The notes: generated by a model from the letters alone, not told the origin. A stretch of DNA of 26,894 nt from an uncultured bacterium (GCA_937873545.1 CALMWI010000155.1:1-26894); one strand, 5' to 3'; counted from the first letter of the stretch, positions 1,806 through 24,980 are shown. A program made the numbers and translations.

Positions 1806-2627
1806 TTACCATCCCAGTTTTTCTTCCGCTTCAGCGTTCAGATTTATATCAATTACCGTACCTTCCTTAACTTTCTGACCCCACTGAATTGACTGTCCGA
1901 TGATCCTGTCGAAAGCTTTGTCCTCGTCAGTGACTTTGGTTACCTTTCCGAGTTTGAGCTTGCTTCTTTCGATTTCCGCCTTCGCCTTATCAAGGCTTTT
2001 GTTGTAAAGGTTCGGTACTATTACCTGCTTAACAGCAGCGCCTTTACTTACAACGATATCAACAACAGCCTCGGAGCTGATCTCGCTGCCCGCAGGCGGA
2101 TTGAAGCTGATCACCTTATCCTTTTCTACTTTATCATTATCTTCAAAATTTTCCGAAATATTGATAATGCCGGATTTTCCCAACAGGTCTTTTGCGGTTG
2201 AATAGTTAAGTCCGGTAATATCAGGCATTACTACCTTGTCGGTCAGCTCGATCTCGGCCAGATCATCTTCGGACATTGTTTCTATAGTTATTTCTACGGC
2301 TTTTGCGACGCTTAACTTAACCGCGTCTCCTGCTTTTGCGACGAACCCCGGAAGAGGAAACTGCGATAAAATAACATCCGGCTGGGTATTTTCGAGAAAT
2401 TTTTCTTCGGGAATTATCTTAAGACCGAACTGCTGTGCGACTTTTTCCGCTTCAGGGAGCTTTAGATTAACAAAATTGGGTACCTCGGTTGAAGTTGCCA
2501 GAGGTTCGGAAGAAAGAAAATCCTCCGGAAGTATTTTCTTAAGATTTATCACCCCGGTAAATATTAGTATGCTTGTTATGACTGTAACAAGGAACGAGGT
2601 AATTAATGCTGTTGCGAAAGGTTTCAT
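1806..2627 (-). CDS. Membrane-anchored PASTA-repeat protein (3 PASTA domains, no kinase or PBP domain)
   Basis: N-terminal TM helix (ALITSFLVTVITSILIFTGVI), then three repeats starting VPNFVN, MPDITG and VPNLYN with PASTA features (A...L...GL, Q.P.PG, V.L.VS). Confidence 0.85.
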   Translation of the reverse strand: MKPFATALITSFLVTVITSILIFTGVINLKKILPEDFLSSEPLATSTEVPNFVNLKLPEAEKVAQQFGLKIIPEEKFLENTQPDVILSQFPLPGFVAKAGDAVKLSVAKAVEITIETMSEDDLAEIELTDKVVMPDITGLNYSTAKDLLGKSGIINISENFEDNDKVEKDKVISFNPPAGSEISSEAVVDIVVSKGAAVKQVIVPNLYNKSLDKAKAEIERSKLKLGKVTKVTDEDKAFDRIIGQSIQWGQKVKEGTVIDINLNAEAEEKLGW

Positions 2628-2644: not shown

Positions 2645-5600
2645 TTAATGAATACTCTCAATAAATCTTTTTGCGTAATCAAGTTTATTGTAATCGAAGT
2701 CGTCTTTGTTGCTGAAGCTCAGCAGCTTTTCAAAATAATACCGCGCCGATCTATTGTCCCCGATAGCGGATTTTATCATACCGATATTATAGAACAGATT
2801 CGGATAATTGTGGTAATCGTCAGGCGAAAGGTTCCCCAAAGCCCTTGTACTTATCTTATCCGCTTCAGAAAAATCACCAAGATTATAATAGATCCACGAA
2901 GTTGTAGATAAGAATTCGGGATTTTCAGGTTCTTTCTCAAGAAGCAGCTTTGAAATATCAAGGGCTTCAGACATGTCGCCCTTGTTGTCAGTTATGAAAC
3001 GCACAAGTTCGTGCATGAATCCTGTTTCATGCGGGAAGAGGCTGAGCTTGAGCCTATAAGCACGGTCCCTTAATTCCAGAATGCCCGGGTTTGGGAAATT
3101 TTTATTGCTGTCGAAATATCTGAGTCCGAAAAAGTCATCATCTCCGGAATAAAATGCCTGTTTGGATATTGAAGCGTACTCCGGTGCGTTAGTGATCTTA
3201 TAAAGGTATAGATTTGCAGGAAGGTTTCCCGGGTCAAGTATCAGGGCAGATTTAAAGAATTTCTGAGAAGCACTGTTATTGATCCCGTAATTGAGCAGTC
3301 CGAGCAGGGTTAAGTTTTCTACTCTTTTCGGATCAAGCTTGTTGGCTTTTTCTGCGTAATCGATCGCGTCGATCGTTTTTGACTGAGCAAGGTTTATCTC
3401 AGAGAGCGCTGAGTATAAAGACGACAGAGCGGCGGGGTCATTCTTGAATTTTTCAGTAAGGAAAATCAGAAAATTCGAGAGCCTGTCGAAATCCTCATAC
3501 ATCATAAAACTGGAAACCAGTATTTCAAGAAATTTATCTGAGACCTGAAAATTCTTTTCTTTGATCAGTTCAAGATAGTGCTCGGCAGTTAGAAAATCAT
3601 TGTTGTTCATAAGAACGGATGAAAAACTGATAAGATTGTAAGCGTATGAGGGATTTTTGACTACTGAAAGAAGAAGTTCATTACCTGCAGAAGCGTAAAG
3701 CTTTTTCTTGAGCAGAGAAAAGTTAAGATCGTTCTGCCTCAAAAATTTTCTGAATCTTCCGGCACCGAGGCTTAATAAAAGGTCTGTATTGTTATTGTGA
3801 TCTAAAAAGCAGCTGAGTGCGAATTCATCTTCAGAAAGGGCGGAATGATAAAGAATATCCCCGAACATATTCATAACGCCGACGGACGGAAGCGTGCCGA
3901 TCCCGTTATCTTTGCAGATGTTGTTTCTGTTTCCGTCAATGAAAAGCGGAATATACAGCGAATTGATCTTTCTGATTATATCGTAACTTGAAAAAACAGA
4001 CTCATCCGGAATATAGACGTTGTCTTTGCCGCGAGAAAGATAAACAAGGATCGGTTTGCTGTCCATTTTAGAATAAATCATGGCTTCTTCAGGGTCGTAG
4101 ATCCAGTTTATCTCGTCTTTCGGGATATCTTTTCTTTTTCTGTACAGCTTTACTTTGTCTATCTCGTCAGCCAAAACTTTCTGTGGCATCACACCGTATT
4201 TTGATGCTAAAAGGTTTATATCTTCATCAAAGAACAGCACTGTCGGAAATTTGTTTACATTATATTTTTTTGCAAGTTCAGAATTGTCGGCATCCTCGAT
4301 AGAAAGCAGGATGGTCTTTTTATAGTTCTTTAAGAACCCGGGATTAAAGATAGTTTGTTTAAGATAAGTTTCTGAGGCCGGATATTTTTTTGAAGTCAGA
4401 ACAACTATTACCGGAAGCCCGAACTCAAGGGCCAGTTCCTCGGCATGCGAGAAATTTTTAGCGGTTTTATAGCGGTTGTCTTCTGAATCCCTGTTCATTT
4501 CGAAGATCCTTTTACCAAGCAGAACAGATTCAGAAATGAACGAGTGAACCACTTCTTTATCGGTTAAAGATCCTTTTGAGTTTATGAATGACCTTATTAC
4601 CCTTTTGTTTTCATCCGCAAGTATCATAGCGGGAAAGTCAGAGATCCCGAATTCTTCAAGAATCTGTCTGTCCTTATGCCGGAAAAGTCTGTACATGACT
4701 GTTTCATCAGCCATCCCGATAATTTCTTTCTGCGAAAGGGCCAGCTCAAGATATTTTGAATTCAGGCTTGTATTATCAAGAGCTACGATAAGAAGCGGTT
4801 TTTTCTCCTTTGAAGATTTTGATACTGCCTCATCCCATGATTCAACCCATTGATTTTTACTTCCTGAAACCGAGCTCTCTTTCTGCTGGATCGAATCTGA
4901 CAGAGTAATAATATTCTGTATGGCAAAATAGGACTGTATCAGCTCCTCTTTCGTCGGAAACTCAGCCTGTCCGTCATTTATGCACTGCAATGCCATTGCC
5001 GGTTCGTTTTCAAGCAGGCTTAATTTTGCATTCTCAAGATATTTCTGTAAAGAATTGTCCGGAAGCGCGTCAAGGATCTTACGGGCGTTTTCAAATTGAG
5101 ACATGCTTGCATATACTTTAACCGCATTCTGAACAGAAGTGACGGCGGTTGGATTTATTGCCAGAGCGGAGTCTGAGAGTATTTTTGCCTTTTCATAATT
5201 GTACCGTCCGAATTCAATATCGGAAAGAGCATTATAGGCATCGGCATACTCAGGAAAAACTTCCAGCGCATCGCGATAAAGATTTACCGCCTCCAGATCA
5301 TCTCTGCAGATATCCTTATATATTTCGGCACATTTGAACAATGCCAGCGGGTTATCCGGGTAAGCATCTTTAAGCTTTCGGGCAGTATCGGTTGCGGGTG
5401 ATTTTGCGCCCAGTATTTTGTAAAGATCCAGCATGGCGATATGAAAATACACGCTGTTAATTCCGAGTTTTTCAGATTTTTTTAAAAGTGTGTAGGCGCT
5501 GTCCAGCAAATTCCTGTCAGATCCGAAATTCAAATATGCAAGCCCGAGAAAAAATGATGCTTTAGGATTGTTTCTGTTTTTGCTGTACATATCCGAGTAA

Positions 5601-6406
5601 TAATTTAGAAGCTTTTGAAAGTCAGACTGCTCTGCGGATTTTATATTAAAATAGTTCGCCTTTATGTTTTTTATGCTTTTAAAATCTTTTGTTATGTTGT
5701 GAGCCGACTGAAGGTCTGATCTGAAATAATCTTCTTCGTAATCGGTTATATTGTTGAAGACCATCAGAAAAAACAGAAGGAACAGGAAAAAAAGCGTCAG
5801 AGATATCGGCAAAATGACTTTAAGGATATTTTCTCTGTTGAACCGGAACGGATCATCGGTTTTATGAGACGGAAGCTGAGAATCAAGAAGAACTTCATAG
5901 ACCTGGATTTTCTCTTTTATATTCTTAAGCTTTTTGTTGCCGATAAAATTACACTTGATATCATCCTGGTTTCCGAGAAGGATCAGGACCGAGTGAGTAA
6001 TTACTATACCGCCGGGATTGGCTATAGGTCTTATCCGGGAAGCGATATTGACGCCGTCGCCGAAAATGTCTTCATCTTTTATTATGACATCGCCAATGTG
6101 TATCCCGATCCTTACCCAGAGTTCTCGACTTTTAGGCACAGTAGCGTTCCGGTCGGCAAAATATTTCTGCAGTTCCTTCGCGCACTGAACCAGTGTTACT
6201 GCGCTTTCGGACTCTATCAGGATCTCATCCCCGATATGCTTGATTATTTTCCCGCCGTATTTTGCCGAGATCTCAGTTACCACATCCTTATGCTTCTGAA
6301 GTATTTTCAGAGCTTCGGTCTCGTTACTCTGCATCATCTTTGAATAGCCTACGATGTCCGAGAACATTATTGCGCGTAACTTTCTTACTGTACCGCTTTC
6401 ATTCAT
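2645..6406 (-). CDS. Membrane-bound class III adenylate cyclase with extracytoplasmic TPRs and three thioredoxin-like folds
   Basis: Residues about 8-175 carry FSDIVGY (D17), IKHIGD (K56, D60), RIGIHIGD and DIFGDGVNIASR (D113, N120, R124). One TM helix at about 194-217. TPR helices at about 260-500 and 930-1250. Three Trx-like repeats at about 520-870. Confidence 0.85.
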   Translation of the reverse strand: MNESGTVRKLRAIMFSDIVGYSKMMQSNETEALKILQKHKDVVTEISAKYGGKIIKHIGDEILIESESAVTLVQCAKELQKYFADRNATVPKSRELWVRIGIHIGDVIIKDEDIFGDGVNIASRIRPIANPGGIVITHSVLILLGNQDDIKCNFIGNKKLKNIKEKIQVYEVLLDSQLPSHKTDDPFRFNRENILKVILPISLTLFFLFLLFFLMVFNNITDYEEDYFRSDLQSAHNITKDFKSIKNIKANYFNIKSAEQSDFQKLLNYYSDMYSKNRNNPKASFFLGLAYLNFGSDRNLLDSAYTLLKKSEKLGINSVYFHIAMLDLYKILGAKSPATDTARKLKDAYPDNPLALFKCAEIYKDICRDDLEAVNLYRDALEVFPEYADAYNALSDIEFGRYNYEKAKILSDSALAINPTAVTSVQNAVKVYASMSQFENARKILDALPDNSLQKYLENAKLSLLENEPAMALQCINDGQAEFPTKEELIQSYFAIQNIITLSDSIQQKESSVSGSKNQWVESWDEAVSKSSKEKKPLLIVALDNTSLNSKYLELALSQKEIIGMADETVMYRLFRHKDRQILEEFGISDFPAMILADENKRVIRSFINSKGSLTDKEVVHSFISESVLLGKRIFEMNRDSEDNRYKTAKNFSHAEELALEFGLPVIVVLTSKKYPASETYLKQTIFNPGFLKNYKKTILLSIEDADNSELAKKYNVNKFPTVLFFDEDINLLASKYGVMPQKVLADEIDKVKLYRKRKDIPKDEINWIYDPEEAMIYSKMDSKPILVYLSRGKDNVYIPDESVFSSYDIIRKINSLYIPLFIDGNRNNICKDNGIGTLPSVGVMNMFGDILYHSALSEDEFALSCFLDHNNNTDLLLSLGAGRFRKFLRQNDLNFSLLKKKLYASAGNELLLSVVKNPSYAYNLISFSSVLMNNNDFLTAEHYLELIKEKNFQVSDKFLEILVSSFMMYEDFDRLSNFLIFLTEKFKNDPAALSSLYSALSEINLAQSKTIDAIDYAEKANKLDPKRVENLTLLGLLNYGINNSASQKFFKSALILDPGNLPANLYLYKITNAPEYASISKQAFYSGDDDFFGLRYFDSNKNFPNPGILELRDRAYRLKLSLFPHETGFMHELVRFITDNKGDMSEALDISKLLLEKEPENPEFLSTTSWIYYNLGDFSEADKISTRALGNLSPDDYHNYPNLFYNIGMIKSAIGDNRSARYYFEKLLSFSNKDDFDYNKLDYAKRFIESIH

Positions 6407-6439
6407 TTTTTCGCCTTAAATATATTTCCCAGTGTCAGC

Positions 6440-8524
6440 CTATTTGACTTCCGGTTTCAACAGCTCTTTTCTGACAAGCTTTATTCTGCCCTCTTTATCA
6501 GTTCCGATATATTTGACCTGAAGCTTGTCGCCTATCTTGAAATGTTCTTCTACATTAGCGATCCTCTCAAGCGAAAGCTCCGATACATGTACGAGACCCT
6601 CTATACGCGGCATGATCTCAACGAAAACACCGAAAGGTTTTACACCTCTGACCACTCCGTCGTAAACGGCTCCTATCTCGGGTTTCGCGAACATGCTCTG
6701 TATATGTTTGAGCGCAGCTTCACCGTTCTCGCCTTCAGATAATATTTTTATATAGCCGTTGTCATCGACATCTATCTTAACGCCGAATTCTGCGATGATT
6801 CCTTTGATGTTCTTTCCGCCCGGTCCCACGAATAAACCTATTTCGTCTGCGGCGATCTTGTAATTCAAAATCCTCGGAGCGTGTTCAGAAAGCGCCGGTC
6901 TCGGTTTTGATATTGTCGCGTTCATTATCCCGAGTATATGCTTTCTGCCCTGTTTTGCCTGTTCAAGAGCTTTTTTCATGATCTCTATAGAAATACCCTG
7001 GATCTTTATATCCATCTGGTATGCGCAGATACCGTCTTCTGTTCCGGTGACTTTAAAATCCATATCGCCGAGATGGTCTTCATCGCCGAGAATGTCGGAA
7101 AGTATTACTACATCTTCGCCTTCTTTTATCAGACCCATAGCTATTCCGGCGACCTGCTTTTTAATCGGGACTCCTGCGGCCATCATAGCAAGCGAATTGG
7201 AACAGACCGACGCCATCGAGGACGATCCGTTAGATTCCAAAATCTCGGAAACTAGTCTGATAGTATATGGGAAATCGGCTTCGTGGGGTAAGATTGGTTT
7301 GAATGATCTTTCCGCAAGATTTCCGTGTCCGATCTCTCTTCTTGAAACGCCGGATATTTTTTTTACTTCGCCTACAGAGAAAGGAGGGAAGTTATAGTGA
7401 AGATAAAATTTCTGCTCTTCATTTTCATAAATATTTTCGATAGTCTGAGTGTCGGAATCCCCCCCGAGCGTGCAGACGCCTAAACTCTGTGTTTCACCTC
7501 TTGTGAAAAGAGCCGATCCGTGAACTCTGGGCAGTATATCAAGTTCGCAGGTTATCTGTCTGATCTGATCAGGTTTTCTGCCGTCGATCCTGACATTGTT
7601 CTTAATGATGTTTTTTCTGACTATATCTTTTTCAAGGTCATGCATAACGGTCACAAAATGCTTTTCATCTTCGGGATATTCATCTTCAAGCGCGTCAACA
7701 ACATCGGCATGAAGAAGTCTTCTCGCCTCGTTCCTGTCTTCTTTAATTTTGATCTTTGTGAATTCATGGGTCTTGCTCTCTGAAAGAGAGGTTACTTTTG
7801 CTATAAGTTCTTTTGAAATCTCAGGAACCGTATATTCGAATTTGGGTTTACCGAATTCTTTAATTATCCCAGCCTGAAAATCGCAGATAGTATCGATAAT
7901 GTTCTGACCGAACTGAACTGCCTGAAGAAGCTCGTCTTCACTTACTTCCTTTGATTCACCTTCGACCATTGAAATAAATCCTTTACCGCCGCTTATGACA
8001 AGCTCGATATCGCATTCTTTCATCTGTTTTACAGTGGGATTAGCGACTAATTCTCCGTTAAGTCTTCCCACTCTTACTGCGGCAACCGGCTGTGAAAATG
8101 GTATATCTGAAAGATTTACGGCCAAAGAAGTCCCGATAATCCCGAAAACATCCATAACCACCTCGCCGTCCGAAGAAAGAACATTGCAAATGATCTGAAC
8201 TTCGTTATTAAAACCTTCAGGGAATAAAGGTCTTATCGGTCTGTCGATTATCCTCGCGCTTAAGATCTCATTGTTGGAAGGTCTGGATTCTCTTTTTATA
8301 AAACCGCCGGGGAATTTGCCGGCCGCATACATTTTTTCTTTATACTCGACCGTCATGGGGAAGAAATCAAATCCCACTGCCGGAGTTTTTTGCGCGCAAA
8401 TCGTTACGAGAAGCATATTGTCGCCGTATTTTACGACTGCCGCTCCGTTAGCCTGTCTTGCCATCTTTCCGGATTCAAGGACAAGTTCCTTTCCACCGAG
8501 CATCATTTTTTTGCTGAAAAACAT
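6440..8524 (-). CDS. pnp: Polyribonucleotide nucleotidyltransferase (PNPase)
   Basis: Motifs GKMARQANGAA, FPGGFIKRE, RIDGR, HGSALFTRGETQ, RREIGHG, SNGSSSMAS and DHLGDMDFKV. C-terminal KH and S1 domains. SD AGGAG upstream. Confidence 0.98.
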   Translation of the reverse strand: MFFSKKMMLGGKELVLESGKMARQANGAAVVKYGDNMLLVTICAQKTPAVGFDFFPMTVEYKEKMYAAGKFPGGFIKRESRPSNNEILSARIIDRPIRPLFPEGFNNEVQIICNVLSSDGEVVMDVFGIIGTSLAVNLSDIPFSQPVAAVRVGRLNGELVANPTVKQMKECDIELVISGGKGFISMVEGESKEVSEDELLQAVQFGQNIIDTICDFQAGIIKEFGKPKFEYTVPEISKELIAKVTSLSESKTHEFTKIKIKEDRNEARRLLHADVVDALEDEYPEDEKHFVTVMHDLEKDIVRKNIIKNNVRIDGRKPDQIRQITCELDILPRVHGSALFTRGETQSLGVCTLGGDSDTQTIENIYENEEQKFYLHYNFPPFSVGEVKKISGVSRREIGHGNLAERSFKPILPHEADFPYTIRLVSEILESNGSSSMASVCSNSLAMMAAGVPIKKQVAGIAMGLIKEGEDVVILSDILGDEDHLGDMDFKVTGTEDGICAYQMDIKIQGISIEIMKKALEQAKQGRKHILGIMNATISKPRPALSEHAPRILNYKIAADEIGLFVGPGGKNIKGIIAEFGVKIDVDDNGYIKILSEGENGEAALKHIQSMFAKPEIGAVYDGVVRGVKPFGVFVEIMPRIEGLVHVSELSLERIANVEEHFKIGDKLQVKYIGTDKEGRIKLVRKELLKPEVK

Positions 8525-20061: not shown

Positions 20062-20103
20062 TCCCGAAAACACACAATATTTTTTACTGATTTTCTATTT
20101 TAA

Positions 20104-20220
20104 TTGATAAAACGCTTTTTCATTATTATATTAATAGGCTATGGGTTATTTCATAAATTAAGTAATTTAAAACAAATTGAAATAATTTGCGTTAACATAG
20201 TAAAATTACTATATAAGGAG
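20104..20220 (+). promoter_or_regulatory. Tandem putative sigma70 promoters, two palindromes and RBS upstream of the RRE operon
   Basis: P1: TTGATA (20104-09), N17, TATATT (20127-32). P2: TTGAAA (20177-82), N18, TAAAAT (20201-06). Palindromes TAAATTA-AG-TAATTTA (20154-69) and ATAGTAA-AA-TTACTAT (20197-212). SD AAGGAG (20215-20). Confidence 0.55.
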
Positions 20221-20225
20221 TTTAG

Positions 20226-20468
20226 ATGGATAAAGATAAATTGGCTGTACTTGCAGTGAGTGAAAGCGGGTTCATTTTTGATCCTGTAACCGGCCATTCA
20301 TATACCGCAAATGCTACGGGACTAAAGATCCTTGAACTGCTTAAAGCAGGAAAAGAGCCTGATGAGATCAGGTCGGTTCTTCTTGACGAGTATGACTCGA
20401 CAGAAGACGAAGTCAGCGTGGATGTTAATGATTTTATTGAAAATCTCAAAAAATATTTCTTAATATAG
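20226..20468 (+). CDS. Stand-alone PqqD-family / RiPP recognition element (RRE) protein
   Basis: 80 aa. Three short strands (AVSESG, FIFDP.TG, SYTAN), then N.TG..IL.LL..G....I...L..EY......V..DV..FI..L....LI, the PqqD winged-helix pattern. Confidence 0.85.
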   Translation: MDKDKLAVLAVSESGFIFDPVTGHSYTANATGLKILELLKAGKEPDEIRSVLLDEYDSTEDEVSVDVNDFIENLKKYFLI

Positions 20469-20477
20469 GGGATTTTT

Positions 20478-21530
20478 ATGAAGCTCACCGTAGCGGTAAG
20501 CGGGATAAACACTATTGATAATCCGGGTCCCGGCGCCGGGATATGCCGGGCTTTAAAAGAAAGCGGGATGGATGTAAGGACCATAGGTCTTGCCTATGAC
20601 GCGCTTGAACCGGGAATATATTTAGACCATATAATCGATAAAAGCTATATCATGCCTTATCCTTCAGGAAGCCGTGAAGCATTTATCGAAAGAATCAAAG
20701 ACATTCATTCAAGAGAGAGTATCGATGTTATAATTTCCGCGCTTGATGCCGAACTTCCGATCTATATGGATATCGAGCCTGTTCTGAAAGATATCGGAAT
20801 TAAGATGCTGATACCTTCAAAGGAAATGTTCAGGCTTAGAGATAAGCTCAGACTCAAGGAACTGGCTGAAAAGATCGGAGTTAAAGCTCCGGAGTACATG
20901 AGCTGCACATCTCTGGCAGATCTTCATAACGCGGTGAACGAATTGGGGTTCCCGTGCATGGTGAAAGGGCCATTCTATGAAGCGTACAAAGCTAATTCAC
21001 CGGGCGAGGCGGAAGGATATTTCGGAAAGATCGCAGCAGCCTGGGGTTATCCGATCATCGTGCAGAAATTCATTCAGGGTGACGAGTACGATGTGATAGG
21101 GTGCGGAGACGGCAACGGTAACGATATAGGAGTCTTCGCCATCAGAAAAATGACGATCACCAAGCTCGGTAAAGTATGGAACGCCGTCAGCATCAGGAAC
21201 GAAAAGCTTATCGAAGCTACAAAAAGGGTAGTAAAAGGGCTTTCGTGGCGCGGCGGATTTGAGTTCGAAGTGCTTCTTGAGGACAAGACCCAGGAAATAT
21301 ATGTACTTGAAATAAATCCGAGGTTTCCTGCATGGGTGTATTTTCCGGCAGGCTGCGGAATAAATCTGCCTGCGCGAATGGTTCAGCTTCTTACCGGGCA
21401 GGACTACGACACGCATTCCGATTATAAGAGCGGCAAGCTGATGATAAGATACACCAATGAACTTGTAAAAGATATATCCGACTTCGAACAGATCAGCACA
21501 TTCGGGGAGACATCGGAAAAAGGAGAATAG
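20478..21530 (+). CDS. ATP-grasp carboxylate-amine ligase (single-domain, CarB-like)
   Basis: Pre-grasp domain, DKLRLKELAEKIGV..P, GFPCMVKG, IIVQKFIQGDEY, GGFEFE and VLEINPRF (metal-binding E-x-N). Confidence 0.9.
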   Translation: MKLTVAVSGINTIDNPGPGAGICRALKESGMDVRTIGLAYDALEPGIYLDHIIDKSYIMPYPSGSREAFIERIKDIHSRESIDVIISALDAELPIYMDIEPVLKDIGIKMLIPSKEMFRLRDKLRLKELAEKIGVKAPEYMSCTSLADLHNAVNELGFPCMVKGPFYEAYKANSPGEAEGYFGKIAAAWGYPIIVQKFIQGDEYDVIGCGDGNGNDIGVFAIRKMTITKLGKVWNAVSIRNEKLIEATKRVVKGLSWRGGFEFEVLLEDKTQEIYVLEINPRFPAWVYFPAGCGINLPARMVQLLTGQDYDTHSDYKSGKLMIRYTNELVKDISDFEQISTFGETSEKGE

Positions 21531-21533
21531 AGA

Positions 21534-22886
21534 ATGAAAAAAGAATACATAAAACCGTATATCAGAAAACAGACCGCCGGAGTGATGAACAAATTCGGCG
21601 TAAGTTACAATAAAGGTCACAGGGAAGAGATCGAAGGTTTTCATATCGGTGATTTTACCGAAAAATTCGGATCGCCCGTATTTGTTTTAAGCGAAAAAGT
21701 AATAAGGGAAAGATACAGAAAGATCTATTCATATTTTTCCAGCAAATATCCGAAGGCAAAAATGAGCTGGTCGTATAAAACGAATTACCTCGATGCCGTA
21801 TGTTCCGTGCTTCATCAGGAGGGCGAGACGGCGGAAGTGGTTTCAGACTTTGAATATCAGAAAGCGAGAAGGCTGGGCGTACCGGGCAAGAAGATCATTT
21901 ATAACGGACCTTACAAACCGCTTGAATCGCTTATTGTAGCATTTAAAGAAGGCGCGATGGTCAATCTCGATAATTTCGACGAGATTATCAAAGCGGAAGA
22001 GGCGGCGAAAAAACTCGATATTAAAGCATCTGTCGGCATCAGGGTCAACATGGACACGGGTGTTTATCCGCAGTGGTCGAGATTCGGATTCAATATCGAG
22101 AACAACAACGCATTCAACGCGGTGAAAAGGATCCAGCACAGCGAATATCTGCATCTTGAAGGTATCCATTGTCATATCGGGACTTTCATGATGGAGCCTA
22201 GCGCCTATAAAGAAGCGGTTAAGAAAATTGTTCAGCTGATGCGCAGGATCGAGAAAGAATTTGAAATATCAATTTCGTACCTGGATTTTGGCGGCGGTTT
22301 TCCGTCAAAGAACATACTTAAAGGAACCTATCTGCCGCCTGAAGTAGCCATACAGCCGGTGGAAAATTTTATTGACGCGATCACAGACACTCTTTTAGAA
22401 GAGCTTGAACCGAAAGAATATCCCGAAGTTTATCTTGAAACAGGCAGGGCGATCGTTGACGAGGCCGGGTGGCTTATAACCACCGTTGATGCCGTAAAAA
22501 GACTTCCCGACGGAACGAAAAGTTATATAATCGACGCCGGCGTAAACCTGTTATACACATCAGCCTGGTACAATTATCATGTCGAGATAGACAGAGAAAT
22601 TCACGGAGCTTATGAGAACAGCATTATTTACGGGCCTTTATGCATGAACATCGATGTAGTGGTCGAAAGCGCGTTCTTACCGCCTCTTCCTAAAGGAACG
22701 AGGCTGATACTTTCCCCGATGGGCGCATATAATATGACCCAGTGGATGCAGTTCATCCGCTACCGTCCGGCCGTAGTTATGATATTGGAGGACGGTACTG
22801 TCGAGCAGATAAGAAGGCCTGAAACATTACAGGATATAGTCGGACCGGAAAGCGTTCCGGAGAAATTAAAGAGATTTCAATTTTAA
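21534..22886 (+). CDS. PLP-dependent fold-type III decarboxylase (LysA/DAPDC-like) with an N-terminal extension
   Basis: FGSPVFV, SYKTN (PLP lysine), EVVS..E, YNGP.K, SRFG, HCHIGT, LDFGGGF, ETGRAIV, YGPLCMNIDV and GAYN. About 30 extra residues precede the barrel. SD AGGAG 8 nt before the ATG. lysA is not assigned because the context suggests a different substrate. Confidence 0.88.
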   Translation: MKKEYIKPYIRKQTAGVMNKFGVSYNKGHREEIEGFHIGDFTEKFGSPVFVLSEKVIRERYRKIYSYFSSKYPKAKMSWSYKTNYLDAVCSVLHQEGETAEVVSDFEYQKARRLGVPGKKIIYNGPYKPLESLIVAFKEGAMVNLDNFDEIIKAEEAAKKLDIKASVGIRVNMDTGVYPQWSRFGFNIENNNAFNAVKRIQHSEYLHLEGIHCHIGTFMMEPSAYKEAVKKIVQLMRRIEKEFEISISYLDFGGGFPSKNILKGTYLPPEVAIQPVENFIDAITDTLLEELEPKEYPEVYLETGRAIVDEAGWLITTVDAVKRLPDGTKSYIIDAGVNLLYTSAWYNYHVEIDREIHGAYENSIIYGPLCMNIDVVVESAFLPPLPKGTRLILSPMGAYNMTQWMQFIRYRPAVVMILEDGTVEQIRRPETLQDIVGPESVPEKLKRFQF

Positions 22887-22898
22887 GGATAAAAGCGC

Positions 22899-24980
22899 AT
22901 GAGTTCAGGCAGGGTAAAAGAATATTATAAAGACACGACAGAAGAATTGTTTTTCGCTTACTCGAATCTTTTCTTTATTCAGAACAGGACCGTCGGAGTA
23001 CTTCTGTTCCTCTCAACGCTGTTCAACCGAAACATCGCCGTTCTCGGGCTGCTTTCTCTCATTATCGCATTGCTCTTCGCAAGGTTCATCGGAGTTAAAA
23101 GAAATGATCCGGTAAATAAACTATTTACCTACAATGCCCTTCTTACCGGATTTGCCGTCGGATTCATTTTTAAGATCACCACGCTCTCGATTCTGCTAAC
23201 TTTAGGCATGAGCATTCTGACAGTCCTGATCACTTATACATTAAGTTCAGCCCTGTATTTATATTTCAGGCTGCCCGTTTTGAACATACCGTTCACAATA
23301 TCGGCCATGATAATATATCTAGCATCGGCTAAGTACAGCAATCTTATTGTTGATTCATTCTACAAACAGGAATATTTCAATATTGAAGCACTGCCGGCTT
23401 TTATTCAGGGACTTTTCCGGGCTGTCGGAATACTGATATTCATGCCTTATGATATTATCGGCATTATTCTGCTGATAGCGATCCTGCTTTATTCACGGAT
23501 CACCTTTTTTACGGCTGTCCTGTCCTATTACGCGGGAATATATTTCCTAGCTGTATTAAAAGGCAGCGTTCCTCTCGCGTTCCAGGAAGTATCATCATTC
23601 AACTTCATACTGGTGGGAGTGAGTCTCGGCGGAATGTTTCTAATCCCTTCAAAAAGAACATACCTGCTCACATTATCAGCCGTTCTCGCGTCGGTTTTTA
23701 TAATAGACGCCACATCGGTCTTCTGGGTCTCGTTCGGAATACCGGTGTTCACACTGCCGTTCAACCTTACGGTTCTGTTATACATTTATGTACTCGGCAG
23801 CGTCAAATATGTGATGATGAATCAGACCCATCTCGAACAGCCTGAAAAATCGCTTATCGATCATCTCAACTATAAAAACAGGTTCGACTGGTCAACGCCT
23901 TCGATAAACCTTCCTTTTATGGGAAAATGGACCGTATATCAGCCTTTTGACGGCGAATGGACGCACAAAGGCGTATGGAAATATGCTTATGATTTCACGA
24001 TAGAAGATAAAGGAAAAACATTCAAGAACGAAGGACAGCAGAAAGAAGATTATTTCTGCTACGGAAAGCCGGTTGTGTCGCCCGTTGACGGGACTGTAGT
24101 TGATGTTTACGACGAAGCTGATGACAACGATATCGGTACGGTTGATAAAGTGAATAACTGGGGGAATTATATTATAATTTACTTTAACCCCGGGTATTAT
24201 GTTGAATTGTCGCATCTTAAAAAAGGTTCGATCAAGGTTAAAAAGAACGATCAGGTATCAAAAGGGCAATTGCTTTCAGAATGCGGAAATTCAGGTTATT
24301 CGCCAGAACCCCACCTTCATGTTCAGCTGCAGTATTCCCATCTGATAGGATCGGCGGGAATAGAGTTTGCGTTCAACAGCTTCAAAGCGAACGATCTTGA
24401 TCTTGATATTAAATATCTTAAAAAGAATGATTCCGTTACAGCTCTGTCATCATCAAAAACACTCACAAGAAAACTCCAGTTCATTCTTGATGAAGAGTTC
24501 ATATATAAAGTTTTCAATGATGATATTCAGACCGGCGAAATTGCGGTTACCGTGAAGATGGAAACCGACGGCACATATTATTTCTGCGACGGGAAAGAAA
24601 ATAAGCTTTATTTCGGGAACGACAGGGACAGGTTCGTGTATTTTAAATATGACGGGATCTATAATTCCGAGCTCAGATATTTCTTTCTGGCTCTGCCGTC
24701 CGTTCCTCTGTCAGATGACGAACTGATAGAATGGAATGAATTCATTCCCGATAATGTTTTCAGGATATCAAAGCTCCCTCTTATAATAAAATCCTTCAAT
24801 CACAAATTGAACAAGATCTGCGGATTCTATATCAGGAATGATAAAAATACCGTAGCCGGCAAAATAATTCAGAACGGCCGCGTGGCTGCCCAGACCAAAG
24901 CTGTCATTTGCGATAATAAGGGAATTAAAGAGATTTCATTGATTTTCAACAAAAAAACAATCAGATTAGAGAAAATATGA
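22899..24980 (+). CDS. Urea-transporter (UT)-fold membrane protein fused to an M23 metallopeptidase and an unknown C-terminal domain
   Basis: Residues 1-300: two inverted 5-TM repeats with UT signatures YNALL/FNFIL and LPVLNIPF/IPVFTLPF. Residues about 335-480: M23 fold (H356...D365, PVVSPVDGTVV, GNYIII, ELSHLKKGSI.VK..D.V.KGQ....GNSG.S..PHLH with H472/H474). About 190-aa beta-rich tail. Confidence 0.85.
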   Translation: MSSGRVKEYYKDTTEELFFAYSNLFFIQNRTVGVLLFLSTLFNRNIAVLGLLSLIIALLFARFIGVKRNDPVNKLFTYNALLTGFAVGFIFKITTLSILLTLGMSILTVLITYTLSSALYLYFRLPVLNIPFTISAMIIYLASAKYSNLIVDSFYKQEYFNIEALPAFIQGLFRAVGILIFMPYDIIGIILLIAILLYSRITFFTAVLSYYAGIYFLAVLKGSVPLAFQEVSSFNFILVGVSLGGMFLIPSKRTYLLTLSAVLASVFIIDATSVFWVSFGIPVFTLPFNLTVLLYIYVLGSVKYVMMNQTHLEQPEKSLIDHLNYKNRFDWSTPSINLPFMGKWTVYQPFDGEWTHKGVWKYAYDFTIEDKGKTFKNEGQQKEDYFCYGKPVVSPVDGTVVDVYDEADDNDIGTVDKVNNWGNYIIIYFNPGYYVELSHLKKGSIKVKKNDQVSKGQLLSECGNSGYSPEPHLHVQLQYSHLIGSAGIEFAFNSFKANDLDLDIKYLKKNDSVTALSSSKTLTRKLQFILDEEFIYKVFNDDIQTGEIAVTVKMETDGTYYFCDGKENKLYFGNDRDRFVYFKYDGIYNSELRYFFLALPSVPLSDDELIEWNEFIPDNVFRISKLPLIIKSFNHKLNKICGFYIRNDKNTVAGKIIQNGRVAAQTKAVICDNKGIKEISLIFNKKTIRLEKI

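What the first reader, a model, noticed from the sequence alone, without database searches (positions are those of the whole stretch)
20478..22886. ATP-grasp + fold-III decarboxylase pair recalls BtrJ/BtrK logic but with an RRE instead of an ACP
Seen: adjacent ligase and decarboxylase with intact catalytic motifs. Established: in butirosin biosynthesis the ATP-grasp BtrJ loads glutamate on the carrier BtrI, and the fold-III PLP enzyme BtrK decarboxylates it to a GABA unit. Inference: an analogous ligate-then-decarboxylate cycle could build aminoacyl or polyamine-like units on a peptide tether. The enzyme is then probably not the housekeeping LysA.
Basis: inference. Interest (0 to 1): 0.6.

Follow-up and report, generated by a model that had tools for sequence, protein, structure and literature searches.

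The report
Conserved ligase–decarboxylase pair, not LysA
An ATP-dependent ligase and a lysine-pathway-like decarboxylase always occur together, with a small peptide-binding protein and a membrane channel, in an undescribed operon found in many bacterial phyla. The decarboxylase is not the housekeeping lysine enzyme, and the operon probably makes an unknown amide-linked amine.

Summary
ATP-grasp (20478-21530) and fold-III PLP decarboxylase (21534-22886) are adjacent, 3 nt apart, with intact catalytic motifs.

They are an obligate pair:
- The same 11 of 121 sampled Bacteroidota genomes carry both, always adjacent (p about 1e-15).
- The same order recurs in about 80 loci from several phyla.
- A natural fusion protein exists.

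The decarboxylase is not LysA:
- It scores below the LysA cut-off.
- In 78 of 78 orthologues the DAP-binding Arg and Glu are replaced (T342, M371), as in FigC/FslC, its closest solved relative.
- Six of ten cassette-bearing genomes also hold a canonical lysA. The window's own genome does not.

The BtrJ/BtrK analogy holds only as logic. BtrK is more distant than FigC, and there is no carrier protein and no precursor peptide gene. The ligase folds like small-molecule ligases (2pn1, PylC).

The PqqD protein is a lasso-B1-type RRE that keeps the residues which read YxxP leaders. The only such conserved motif is the decarboxylase's own disordered N-terminal tail.

Best reading: ligate, then decarboxylate a side-chain-conjugated amino acid, and export the product. 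The substrate is unknown. This scan has met the cassette before in at least 36 other genomes. I found no published description.

The parts
20062..20225 (+). AT-rich intergenic region after prmA, with two promoter-like sites (20104-20132, 20177-20206). Probable start of the operon.
   Evidence: These are consensus matches only, and no more numerous than in shuffled sequence.
20226..20468 (+). PqqD-like stand-alone RRE (80 aa) of the lasso-B1 type.
   Evidence: PF05402, E 9e-12. A profile of 27 orthologues hits TbiB1 (5v1u, 51.8 bits, E 8e-13) and TfuB1 (6jx3, 41 bits). N29 (73/73) and D66 (69/73) align with LppB N33 and D70, the residues shown to bind the Pro kink and the Tyr of YxxP leaders.
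20478..21530 (+). ATP-grasp ligase (350 aa) of the PRK12767 / 2pn1 / PylC-like branch.
   Evidence: for the motifs. AF2 pLDDT 92. VIA Z 30.0 to 2pn1 and 24.4 to PylC. The family has about 979 members, all about 345-359 aa.
21534..21611 (+). N-terminal tail of the decarboxylase (residues 1-26): Y5-x-x-P8-x-I10 ... G16-x-x-N19-K20-F21-G22. Predicted disordered. Candidate built-in leader for the RRE.
   Evidence: Conserved in 74 of 78 orthologues (YxxPx-hydrophobic) and in 71 of 78 (full motif). AF2 pLDDT below 50 for residues 1-3 and 6-26. Absent from canonical LysA paralogues. YxxPxI is kept as an internal linker in the natural fusion P0251. Unique in the own genome.
21534..22886 (+). Fold-type III (alanine-racemase-fold) PLP decarboxylase, 450 aa. 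It belongs to the DAPDC-derived clade but has a FigC-like uncharged substrate pocket.
   Evidence: T342/W345/Y346 replace LysA's R-P-x-x-Y. C370-M371-N372-I373-D374 replaces C-E-S-G/T-D.
22899..24980 (+). Urea-transporter-family channel fused to an M23 metallopeptidase and a C-terminal domain of about 200 aa. Always follows the decarboxylase.
   Evidence: PF03253 and PF01551. Present after the decarboxylase in nearly all loci long enough to show it. No hydrophobic segment between the last UT helix (about residue 301) and M23 (388-479).
24977..26389 (+). 470-aa protein with an N-terminal hydrophobic signal-like segment and no Pfam match. This cassette position is variable (about 290 aa in Phorcysia and Thermodesulfatator).
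26299..26894 (+). TPR protein (about 206 aa in relatives), cut off by the window end. Conserved last gene of the cassette.

Best explanation
The two genes are the enzymatic core of a conserved, undescribed six-gene cassette: RRE, ATP-grasp, decarboxylase, UT/M23 channel-peptidase, and two envelope proteins.

Proposed mechanism:
1. The ATP-grasp activates a carboxylate as an acyl phosphate and joins it by an amide bond to the side chain of an amino acid. That amino acid keeps its free alpha-amino and alpha-carboxyl groups.
2. The decarboxylase removes the alpha-carboxyl group of this side-chain-conjugated amino acid. Its pocket has lost the Arg and Glu that grip free meso-DAP. The product is an N-acyl diamine or a similar amide-linked amine.
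3. The RRE does not carry the substrate. It docks on the decarboxylase's own disordered N-terminal YxxPxI tail and assembles or positions the enzyme complex.
4. The M23 domain and the UT-type channel trim and export the product.

Shown: the obligate gene pairing, the intact catalytic sites, the non-LysA pocket, the lasso-B1-type RRE with its YxxP-reading residues, the conserved disordered tail, and the absence of a precursor gene.

Inferred: the order of the reactions, the nature of the substrate, the RRE-tail contact, and the export step.
For: Pairing:
- The same 11 of 121 Bacteroidota genomes have both genes, always adjacent.
- The gene order is the same in about 80 loci: Bacteroidota, Ignavibacteriota, Cloacimonadota, Riflebacteria and Delongbacteria, plus Phorcysia (Aquificota) and Thermodesulfatator.
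- A natural ATP-grasp::decarboxylase fusion, P0251, is seen on 7 contigs.

Not LysA:
- It scores 209 bits against a cut-off of 297.9.
- T342 and M371 replace the DAP-binding Arg and Glu in 78 of 78 orthologues. LysA paralogues from the same genomes keep R-P-x-x-Y and C-E-S-x-D.
- The roles of these residues are taken from PMC7857480.
- A canonical lysA co-exists in Pedobacter, Mucilaginibacter, Melioribacteraceae, Phorcysia, Riflebacteria and Ignavibacteriaceae.

Conjugate substrate:
- The closest solved relative is FigC, the N-citrylornithine decarboxylase (209 bits).
- All non-DAPDC members of this clade act on conjugated amino acids.

Ligase type:
- The nearest folds are 2pn1, PylC (an amino-acid carboxylate to Lys epsilon-amine ligase), PurK, PurD and L-amino-acid ligases.

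RRE and tail:
- TbiB1 and TfuB1 are the best solved matches for the RRE.
- N29 and D66 equal LppB N33 and D70.
- The tail matches [Y/W]xxPx[L/V/I/F/A], the motif read by discrete lasso RREs.
- The tail is disordered in the AF2 model.
- No other conserved small ORF exists.
- The motif is retained in remote members and in the fusion, while the NKFG part varies.
- A homologue outside the system (P0259) lacks both the tail and the PqqD and ATP-grasp neighbours.
- When the cassette is split (G098), the family-type PqqD is still kept elsewhere in the genome.
Against: - No substrate is identified. The FigC citryl-binding residues (H357, R387, N389) are I373, Q403 and M405 here, so the acyl group is not citrate.
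- The RRE-tail contact is inferred from motifs only. No complex could be modelled and no PqqD fusions were found.
- One PqqD-linked homologue (P0265) has no recognisable YxxP at its called N-terminus.
- An earlier check in this scan reported the motif on many such enzymes counted as outside the system.
- UT pores are narrow, so export of anything larger than a small amide is doubtful (own knowledge).
- Foldseek's top hits after 2pn1 are bicarbonate- or formate-activating enzymes (biotin carboxylase, CPS, PurK, PurT). N-carboxylation or ureido chemistry, rather than acyl ligation, is therefore not excluded.
- Four of ten cassette genomes, including this one, lack a canonical lysA.
Confidence: 0.5

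Rival explanations
1. Carrier-tethered chemistry in the strict BtrI/BtrJ/BtrK or LysW sense. The ATP-grasp loads an amino acid covalently onto a peptide or protein tether, the decarboxylase works on the tethered unit, and M23 releases it. The tether could be the decarboxylase tail (invariant K20 in the core clade) or the ligase's own C-terminal G-E(-L) end.
For: - BtrK belongs to the same AR-fold clade and acts on Glu-S-BtrI.
- K20 within N19-K20-F21-G22 is invariant in 32 of 32 aligned orthologues.
- The ligase C-terminus ends in or near a conserved G-E in many members.
- PylC, the closest characterised structural neighbour, acylates a Lys epsilon-amine.
- A peptidase is built into the cassette.
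Against: - The Lys is lost in the natural fusion (…HQGNLGS…) and in remoter members that keep YxxPxI.
- The G-E end is missing in Ignavibacteriota members. Only 53 of 117 homologues end within 2 residues of G-E.
- LysX/ArgX (Z about 18) and graspetide ligases (Z about 14.7) are more distant than small-molecule ligases.
- There is no ACP or phosphopantetheine carrier in the cassette.
Confidence: 0.15
2. A true RiPP pathway whose precursor peptide is encoded elsewhere in the genome. The RRE presents that peptide to the ligase and the decarboxylase.
For: The RRE is a typical lasso-B1-type domain with intact leader-reading residues. Unlinked precursors are known in some RiPP systems (own knowledge).
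Against: - No conserved small ORF lies near the cassette in 80 loci.
- In the own genome, the full tail motif occurs only at the decarboxylase N-terminus, and there is only one PqqD-like gene.
- The core sequences are very strongly conserved across phyla, which is unlike fast-evolving RiPP clusters.
- The ligase is not close to known RiPP ATP-grasps.
Confidence: 0.1
3. Editing or recycling of peptidoglycan-type peptides. The DAPDC-derived enzyme decarboxylates the free D-centre of peptide-bound meso-DAP. The ATP-grasp adds an amino acid, and the M23 domain cuts stem-peptide bonds.
For: - Descent from DAPDC, with loss of exactly the two residues that bind the distal (L-centre) carboxylate and amine. 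These would be in amide linkage in a peptide.
- M23 is a peptidoglycan-peptidase family.
- There is a weak ATP-grasp hit to the archaeal pseudomurein ligase model.
Against: - An RRE with a YxxP reader has no obvious role in such a pathway.
- A UT channel is not a muropeptide route.
- No Mur, Mpl or Ldc genes are linked to the cassette.
- The M23 domain appears to be cytoplasmic.
Confidence: 0.1
4. It is simply the housekeeping LysA, and its neighbours are coincidental.
For: It is the best LysA-model hit in the own genome (209 bits). No other lysA over the cut-off was found there or in three related genomes, while dapA and dapF are present.
Against: - It scores below the curated cut-off.
- The DAP-binding Arg and Glu are lost in every orthologue.
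- A canonical lysA co-exists in six other cassette genomes.
- It is strictly linked to the ATP-grasp gene.
- It is present in only about 9% of sampled Bacteroidota, which is not the distribution of a housekeeping gene.
Confidence: 0.03

Closest known systems
FigA/FigC (FslA/FslC) rhizoferrin route of Francisella, and the related SbnH and AcsE steps
   Same: A ligase makes a side-chain amide (N-citrylornithine), and a DAPDC-derived AR-fold decarboxylase then removes the alpha-carboxyl group. FigC is the best solved match (209 bits). It shares Thr and Tyr on the specificity helix and Met next to the catalytic Cys.
   Different: - The ligase here is an ATP-grasp, not an NIS synthetase.
- The citryl-binding H357, R387 and N389 are I373, Q403 and M405.
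- The score is far below the FslC model cut-off (222.6 against 500).
- There is no siderophore transporter in the cassette.
- This system adds an RRE, an N-terminal tail and a UT/M23 fusion.
BtrI/BtrJ/BtrK (butirosin side chain)
   Same: An ATP-grasp ligase is paired with an AR-fold PLP decarboxylase of the same clade, and a small partner protein of about 80 aa is encoded alongside.
   Different: - BtrK scores only 83-84 bits.
- The small protein is a PqqD/RRE winged helix, not an acyl carrier protein, and has no thioester chemistry.
- Homology of the ligase to BtrJ could not be tested.
Discrete lasso-peptide B1 RREs (TbiB1, TfuB1/FusB1) and LppB
   Same: These are the best solved sequence matches for the PqqD protein. 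The Asn and Asp that read the Pro kink and the Tyr of YxxP leaders are conserved. The candidate ligand carries YxxPxI.
   Different: - The cassette has no B2 protease, no lasso cyclase, no kinase and no separate precursor.
- The leader-like motif sits on a 450-aa enzyme.
- The score is below the NCBIfam lasso_PqqD cut-off (37.6 against 70).
PylC and the 2pn1-type 'CPS-like' ATP-grasp proteins (PRK12767)
   Same: These are the closest folds (Z 30.0 and 24.4). There is a PylC-like N-domain Pfam hit. PylC joins an amino-acid carboxylate to a Lys side-chain amine, which would give exactly the kind of substrate a FigC-like decarboxylase needs.
   Different: Only about 17-20% identity. 2pn1 has no known function. 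The PRK12767 cut-offs are not reached (91 against 316 bits). The family has its own invariant N-x-x-D-x-P-G-P-G loop.
Diaminopimelate decarboxylase LysA
   Same: Same fold, the same PLP and catalytic residues, and common ancestry.
   Different: The DAP-specific Arg and Glu are lost. The protein has an extra N-terminal tail and is operon-locked to a ligase. A canonical LysA paralogue is present in most cassette genomes.

Membership tests
LysA / meso-diaminopimelate decarboxylase | Scores above the curated TIGR01048 cut-off (297.9 bits) | tested here: not met
   209.5 bits. LysA paralogues from cassette genomes score 384-531 bits.
LysA / meso-diaminopimelate decarboxylase | Arg on the specificity helix (R-P-x-x-Y) that binds the distal carboxylate of DAP | tested here: not met
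   T342 in 78 of 78 orthologues. The paralogues keep L-R-P-x-x-Y. The residue's role is taken from PMC7857480.
LysA / meso-diaminopimelate decarboxylase | Acidic residue next to the catalytic Cys (C-E-S-G-D) that binds the distal amino group | tested here: not met
   C370-M371-N372-I373-D374 is invariant. The paralogues have C-E-S-T/G-D.
LysA / meso-diaminopimelate decarboxylase | It is the genome's lysine-pathway decarboxylase (no other lysA) | tested here: inconclusive
   A canonical lysA co-exists in 6 of 10 cassette genomes. None over the cut-off was found in the own genome, G004, G005 or G007. The own genome has dapA and dapF.
AR-fold (fold-type III) PLP decarboxylases | PLP Lys, His stacking on PLP, Gly loop, Glu and Arg of the E-x-G-R motif, catalytic Cys, G-A-Y | tested here: met
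   K82, H212/H214, G253-255, E302, R305, C370 and Y399 are invariant. Both Pfam domains score over their cut-offs.
FslC/FigC N-citrylornithine decarboxylase | Scores above the NF041039 cut-off (500 bits) | tested here: not met
   222.6 bits.
FslC/FigC N-citrylornithine decarboxylase | Citryl-binding residues H357, R387 and N389 | tested here: not met
   They align with I373, Q403 and M405.
FslC/FigC N-citrylornithine decarboxylase | Uncharged specificity helix (Thr/Thr/Tyr) and Met after the catalytic Cys | tested here: met
   T342, W345, Y346 and M371. The middle Thr is Trp here.
BtrI/BtrJ/BtrK system | The decarboxylase is closest to BtrK | tested here: not met
   BtrK (7ru7, 2j66) scores 83-84 bits, ranked below FigC, several DAPDCs and D-Orn/Lys decarboxylase.
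BtrI/BtrJ/BtrK system | An acyl carrier protein bearing the substrate as a thioester | tested here: not met
   The small protein is PF05402 PqqD. No ACP was found in the cassette in any locus inspected.
BtrI/BtrJ/BtrK system | The ATP-grasp is homologous to BtrJ | not tested
   No BtrJ sequence or model was available through the tools.
ATP-grasp superfamily | ATP-phosphate-binding Lys/Arg, hinge Glu, and Mg ligands (E/Q ... E-x-N) with the following Arg | tested here: met
   K163, E203, E264 and E278-x-N280-P-R282 are invariant and align with CPS R715, E761, Q829 and E841-x-N843-P-R845. ATP-grasp_3 and ATPgrasp_Ter score over their cut-offs.
RiPP graspetide ligases and LysX/RimK carrier ligases | Closest structural neighbours are peptide- or protein-modifying ATP-grasps | tested here: inconclusive
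   Z is 14.6-14.9 for 7mgv, 7m4s and 7drm, and 16.7-18.1 for LysX, ArgX and RimK. It is 22-30 for 2pn1, PylC, PurK, PurD and Lal. All share the fold.
Lasso-type discrete RRE (B1 / PqqD family) | PqqD winged-helix domain with the Asn (Pro-kink) and Asp (Tyr) leader readers | tested here: met
   PF05402, E 9e-12. TbiB1 51.8 bits. N29 in 73 of 73 and D66 in 69 of 73, aligned to LppB N33 and D70.
Lasso-type discrete RRE (B1 / PqqD family) | Works with a B2 protease, a lasso cyclase and a separate precursor peptide | tested here: not met
   None is in or near the cassette. The score is below the NF033530 cut-off (37.6 against 70).

The most novel reading that the evidence does not exclude
RiPP leader recognition has been repurposed. 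A lasso-type RRE reads a leader that is built into a full-size metabolic enzyme, namely the decarboxylase's disordered YxxPxI tail. This assembles a ligase-decarboxylase-peptidase-channel machine that makes and exports a still unknown amide-linked amine in hundreds of diderm species from many phyla.
Probability: 0.4. Interest if true: 0.8.

Novelty: new variant of a known kind. Interest (0 to 1): 0.6.

Why it matters
Annotation pipelines name this protein "diaminopimelate decarboxylase" or "alanine racemase", and name its partner "carbamoyl-phosphate synthase large subunit". Both names are probably wrong for a family present in cultured Pedobacter, Mucilaginibacter, Thermovibrio, Desulfurobacterium and Phorcysia, and in many uncultured phyla.

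If the reading is right, three things follow:
- A widespread, unrecognised metabolite (an N-acyl diamine or similar compound) and its export route await discovery.
- RREs would gain a second role as enzyme-docking modules.
- Lysine prototrophy would be over-called in genomes such as this one, where the cassette enzyme is the only LysA-like hit.

The system can be tested directly in genetically tractable Bacteroidota.

Tried and rejected
- Literature: five term combinations (PqqD, ATP-grasp, decarboxylase, urea transporter, M23, RRE) found no paper describing the cassette. Absence from this library is not proof.
- Precursor search: clustering all non-overlapped ORFs of 30-130 aa around 80 loci gave only PqqD and its antisense shadows. 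Peptides shorter than 30 aa or very divergent ones would be missed.
- Fusion search with PqqD against longer proteins found nothing, which is weak evidence. The top 120 ATP-grasp homologues include no PqqD fusions.
- The idea that the own genome's second fold-III gene is the real lysA was rejected. It is split over the ends of contigs C355 and C504, and is intact in relatives as L089:2963-4171. It has ODC-type motifs (FHVGSQ, C-D-S-Q-D, an acidic specificity helix) and scores 183 bits against the LysA model, so it is more probably a polyamine decarboxylase.
- The ligase C-terminal G-E(-L) as a LysW-like carrier end is not conserved enough: 53 of 117 homologues end within 2 residues of G-E, and 4 of 117 end exactly in G-E.
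- K20 as a universal acceptor was rejected, because it is lost in the fusion and in remote members.
- A strict correlation between tail motif and PqqD neighbour was tried on four remote homologues. One with the motif has PqqD (P0266). One with the motif lies at a contig edge (P0258). One without the motif has no PqqD or ligase (P0259). One without a recognisable motif still has PqqD (P0265). The result is suggestive, not clean.
- No multimer model of RRE plus tail could be made with the tools.
Full report
**Anatomy**

The finding's two ORFs are real. An ATP-grasp protein (20478-21530, 350 aa) and a fold-type III PLP decarboxylase (21534-22886, 450 aa) lie 3 nt apart on the + strand. They belong to a compact + strand operon that starts after prmA and an AT-rich gap:
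- PqqD-like protein (20226-20468, 80 aa)
- ATP-grasp
- decarboxylase
- urea-transporter/M23 fusion (22899-24980)
- a 470-aa protein with a signal-like N-terminus (24977-26389)
- a TPR protein cut by the window end

The window is contig C155 of a 2.3-Mb, 517-contig MAG. The closest database relatives are labelled Candidatus Delongbacteria.

**Catalytic integrity**

In a profile alignment, the ligase motifs line up with E. coli carbamoyl-phosphate synthetase. V-V-K163-G aligns with R715/R169, E264 with Q829/Q285, and E278-I-N280-P-R282 with E841-V-N843-P-R845. All are invariant in 28 orthologues.

The decarboxylase keeps K82 (PLP), H212/H214, G253-255, E302, R305, C370 and Y399, invariant in 32 to 78 orthologues.

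**The pair is obligate**

- The search for related loci returned 80 loci, and the same order (PqqD, ATP-grasp, decarboxylase, UT/M23, variable gene, TPR) is found in essentially all that are long enough. These include cultured Pedobacter and Mucilaginibacter.
- The order also holds in Phorcysia thermohydrogeniphila (Aquificota) and Thermodesulfatator, at 50-60% identity.
- In an even sample of 121 Bacteroidota genomes, the decarboxylase profile hits 11 genomes. The ligase profile hits the same 11, always next door on the same strand. Fisher's p is 8e-16.
- The family-type PqqD is in the same 11 genomes, and adjacent in 10. In G098 the cassette is split, and PqqD sits on another contig.
- A natural ATP-grasp::decarboxylase fusion (P0251, 871 aa) occurs on 7 contigs, again preceded by PqqD.
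- Variants exist with a doubled ATP-grasp of about 710 aa.

**Not LysA**

The protein scores 209 bits against TIGR01048, whose cut-off is 297.9, and 222.6 against the FslC model, whose cut-off is 500.

Against solved structures the order is:

| Solved relative | Bits |
|---|---|
| FigC/FslC N-citrylornithine decarboxylase | 209 |
| M. jannaschii DAPDC | 167 |
| Aquifex DAPDC | 151 |
| other DAPDCs and D-Orn/Lys decarboxylase | 88-115 |
| BtrK | 83-84 |

The FigC paper (PMC7857480) states that DAPDC R343 on the specificity helix binds the DAP carboxylate. It also states that the acidic residue beside the catalytic Cys binds the distal amine, and that FigC replaces these with T327/T330/Y331 and M355.

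The window protein has T342/W345/Y346 and C370-M371-N372-I373-D374, invariant in 78 of 78 orthologues from several phyla. The bona fide LysA paralogues taken from Pedobacter, Mucilaginibacter and Melioribacteraceae keep L-R-P-x-x-Y and C-E-S-(T/G)-D.

FigC's citryl-binding H357, R387 and N389 correspond to I373, Q403 and M405. The acyl group is therefore not citrate, and the pocket is uncharged.

**lysA census**

A canonical lysA of 384-531 bits co-exists with the cassette enzyme in Pedobacter, Mucilaginibacter, Melioribacteraceae, Phorcysia, a Riflebacteria MAG (two copies) and an Ignavibacteriaceae MAG.

None over the cut-off is found in the own genome, in two Delongbacteria relatives or in a Cloacimonadota MAG. 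This is so although the own genome has dapA and dapF.

The own genome's only other fold-III gene is split across two contig ends and is intact in relatives. It carries ODC-type motifs, so it is probably a polyamine enzyme.

The orthologues here have the same non-DAP pocket as everywhere else. Lysine auxotrophy or an unrecognised route is the more likely explanation.

**What kind of ligase**

The AF2 model (pLDDT 92) is closest to these structures:

| Structure | Z |
|---|---|
| 2pn1 (uncharacterised) | 30.0 |
| PylC | 24.4 |
| a biotin-carboxylase-type domain | 24.0 |
| PurK | 23.5 |
| PurD | 22.6 |
| L-amino-acid ligases, PurT and BacD | about 22 |
| D-Ala-D-Ala ligases | 18-19 |
| LysX/ArgX | about 18 |
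| RimK | 16.7-18.1 |
| RiPP graspetide ligases | about 14.7 |

The ligase therefore looks like a small-molecule ligase rather than a carrier-protein or RiPP ligase. After 2pn1, Foldseek ranks bicarbonate- and formate-activating enzymes highest, so one-carbon (carbamate or ureido) chemistry cannot be excluded.

PylC joins an amino-acid carboxylate to a lysine side-chain amine. A product of that type has its side chain acylated and its alpha-amino and alpha-carboxyl groups free. This is what a FigC-like decarboxylase would accept.

**The RRE and the missing peptide**

No conserved small ORF other than PqqD exists around 80 loci.

A profile of the PqqD proteins hits the lasso B1 RREs TbiB1 (E 8e-13) and TfuB1 best. 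A 2026 paper (PMC13381572) shows two things. Discrete lasso-type RREs read [Y/W]xxPx[L/V/I/F/A]. In LppB, N33 holds the Pro kink and D70 hydrogen-bonds the Tyr. In my alignment these positions are N29 (73 of 73) and D66 (69 of 73), with identical spacing.

The only conserved motif of this kind in the cassette is at the very N-terminus of the decarboxylase: M-K-K-E-Y5-I-K-P8-Y-I10 ... G16-x-x-N-K-F-G22.
- The YxxPx-hydrophobic part is found in 74 of 78 orthologues.
- It is absent from LysA paralogues.
- AF2 predicts it to be disordered, with pLDDT below 50 for residues 1-3 and 6-26.
- It is unique in the own genome.
- Remote family members and the natural fusion keep YxxPxI while the NKFG part, including the Lys, varies.

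This favours a docking role over a covalent acceptor role. The first-stage note on this tail (e1-5318040) gave me the lead. An earlier check elsewhere in the scan reported the motif on many enzymes counted as outside the system. My four-case test was suggestive but not clean.

**Mechanism proposed (confidence about 0.5)**

1. The ATP-grasp forms an amide on the side chain of an amino acid.
2. The decarboxylase removes the alpha-carboxyl group.
3. The RRE docks on the decarboxylase tail to organise the complex.
4. The M23 domain and the UT-type pore process and export the product. The M23 domain has no membrane segment between it and the last UT helix, so it probably lies on the cytoplasmic side like the UT termini.

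Steps 1, 2 and 4 are inferred from family logic and context. Step 3 is inferred from motifs.

**Rivals**

The rivals are strict carrier tethering (0.15), an unlinked RiPP precursor (0.1), peptidoglycan-peptide editing (0.1) and plain LysA (0.03).

**Verdict**

The closest known system is FigA/FigC, and the RRE is of the lasso-B1 type.

This scan has already noted the cassette in at least 36 other genomes, with similar conclusions. I found no published description.

Noticed in passing
Own genome contigs C355:2-616 (-) and C504:3-818 (+) (L003, L002). Intact orthologue at L089:2963-4171 (-): A second fold-III decarboxylase is split across two contig ends, between a HAD phosphatase and rimO. Its motifs (FHVGSQ, C-D-S-Q-D, acidic specificity helix) look like an ornithine/lysine decarboxylase rather than LysA, yet its best NCBIfam hit is the lysA model (183 bits).
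   Followed up: partly
Own genome (G000), G004, G005, G007: No lysA over the TIGR01048 cut-off was found in this Delongbacteria MAG, two relatives or a Cloacimonadota MAG. The own genome and G004 do have dapA and dapF. This points to possible lysine auxotrophy or an unrecognised last step.
   Followed up: partly
L094:8001-10616 (P0251): Natural ATP-grasp::decarboxylase fusion (871 aa), seen on 7 contigs. A 107-aa PqqD lies upstream, and a 637-aa protein without any Pfam hit sits where UT/M23 normally is.
   Followed up: partly
L097:416-2563, and the JGI contig of P0265: Cassette variants in which the ATP-grasp is doubled (710-715 aa, two modules) between PqqD and the decarboxylase. In L096, two separate ATP-grasp genes precede the decarboxylase, and the UT lacks M23.
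   Followed up: no
L092 (G098:C21) and L093:2737-2982 (-): A Bacteroidota genome where the cassette is split. One contig carries ATP-grasp, an inserted FabA-like gene on the opposite strand, the decarboxylase, and a shorter UT/M23 (521 aa). The PqqD lies on another contig next to two proteins with no Pfam hits.
   Followed up: partly
P0269 (781 aa): A protein with the decarboxylase N-domain followed by a UT domain. It is either a real decarboxylase-channel fusion or a frameshifted assembly.
   Followed up: no
window 20478-20540 (ATP-grasp residues 9-19): Family-specific invariant loop G-x-N11-x-x-D14-x-P16-G-P-G19 at the start of the ligase N-domain. It has no counterpart that I recognise in other ATP-grasp families and is a candidate substrate or partner site.
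   Followed up: no
L004:9698-9988, 6270-7604; L005:8106-8621: In Phorcysia a small cytochrome-c-like gene is inserted between the ligase and the decarboxylase. Both thermophile loci have proteins with faint MamS/MamX-like (DUF2202) hits just upstream of PqqD.
   Followed up: no
window 2645-6406 and 1806-2627 (- strand): A 1253-aa class III cyclase with TPR and thioredoxin-like repeats is followed by a 273-aa protein made of PASTA repeats. It is unrelated to the cassette.
   Followed up: no
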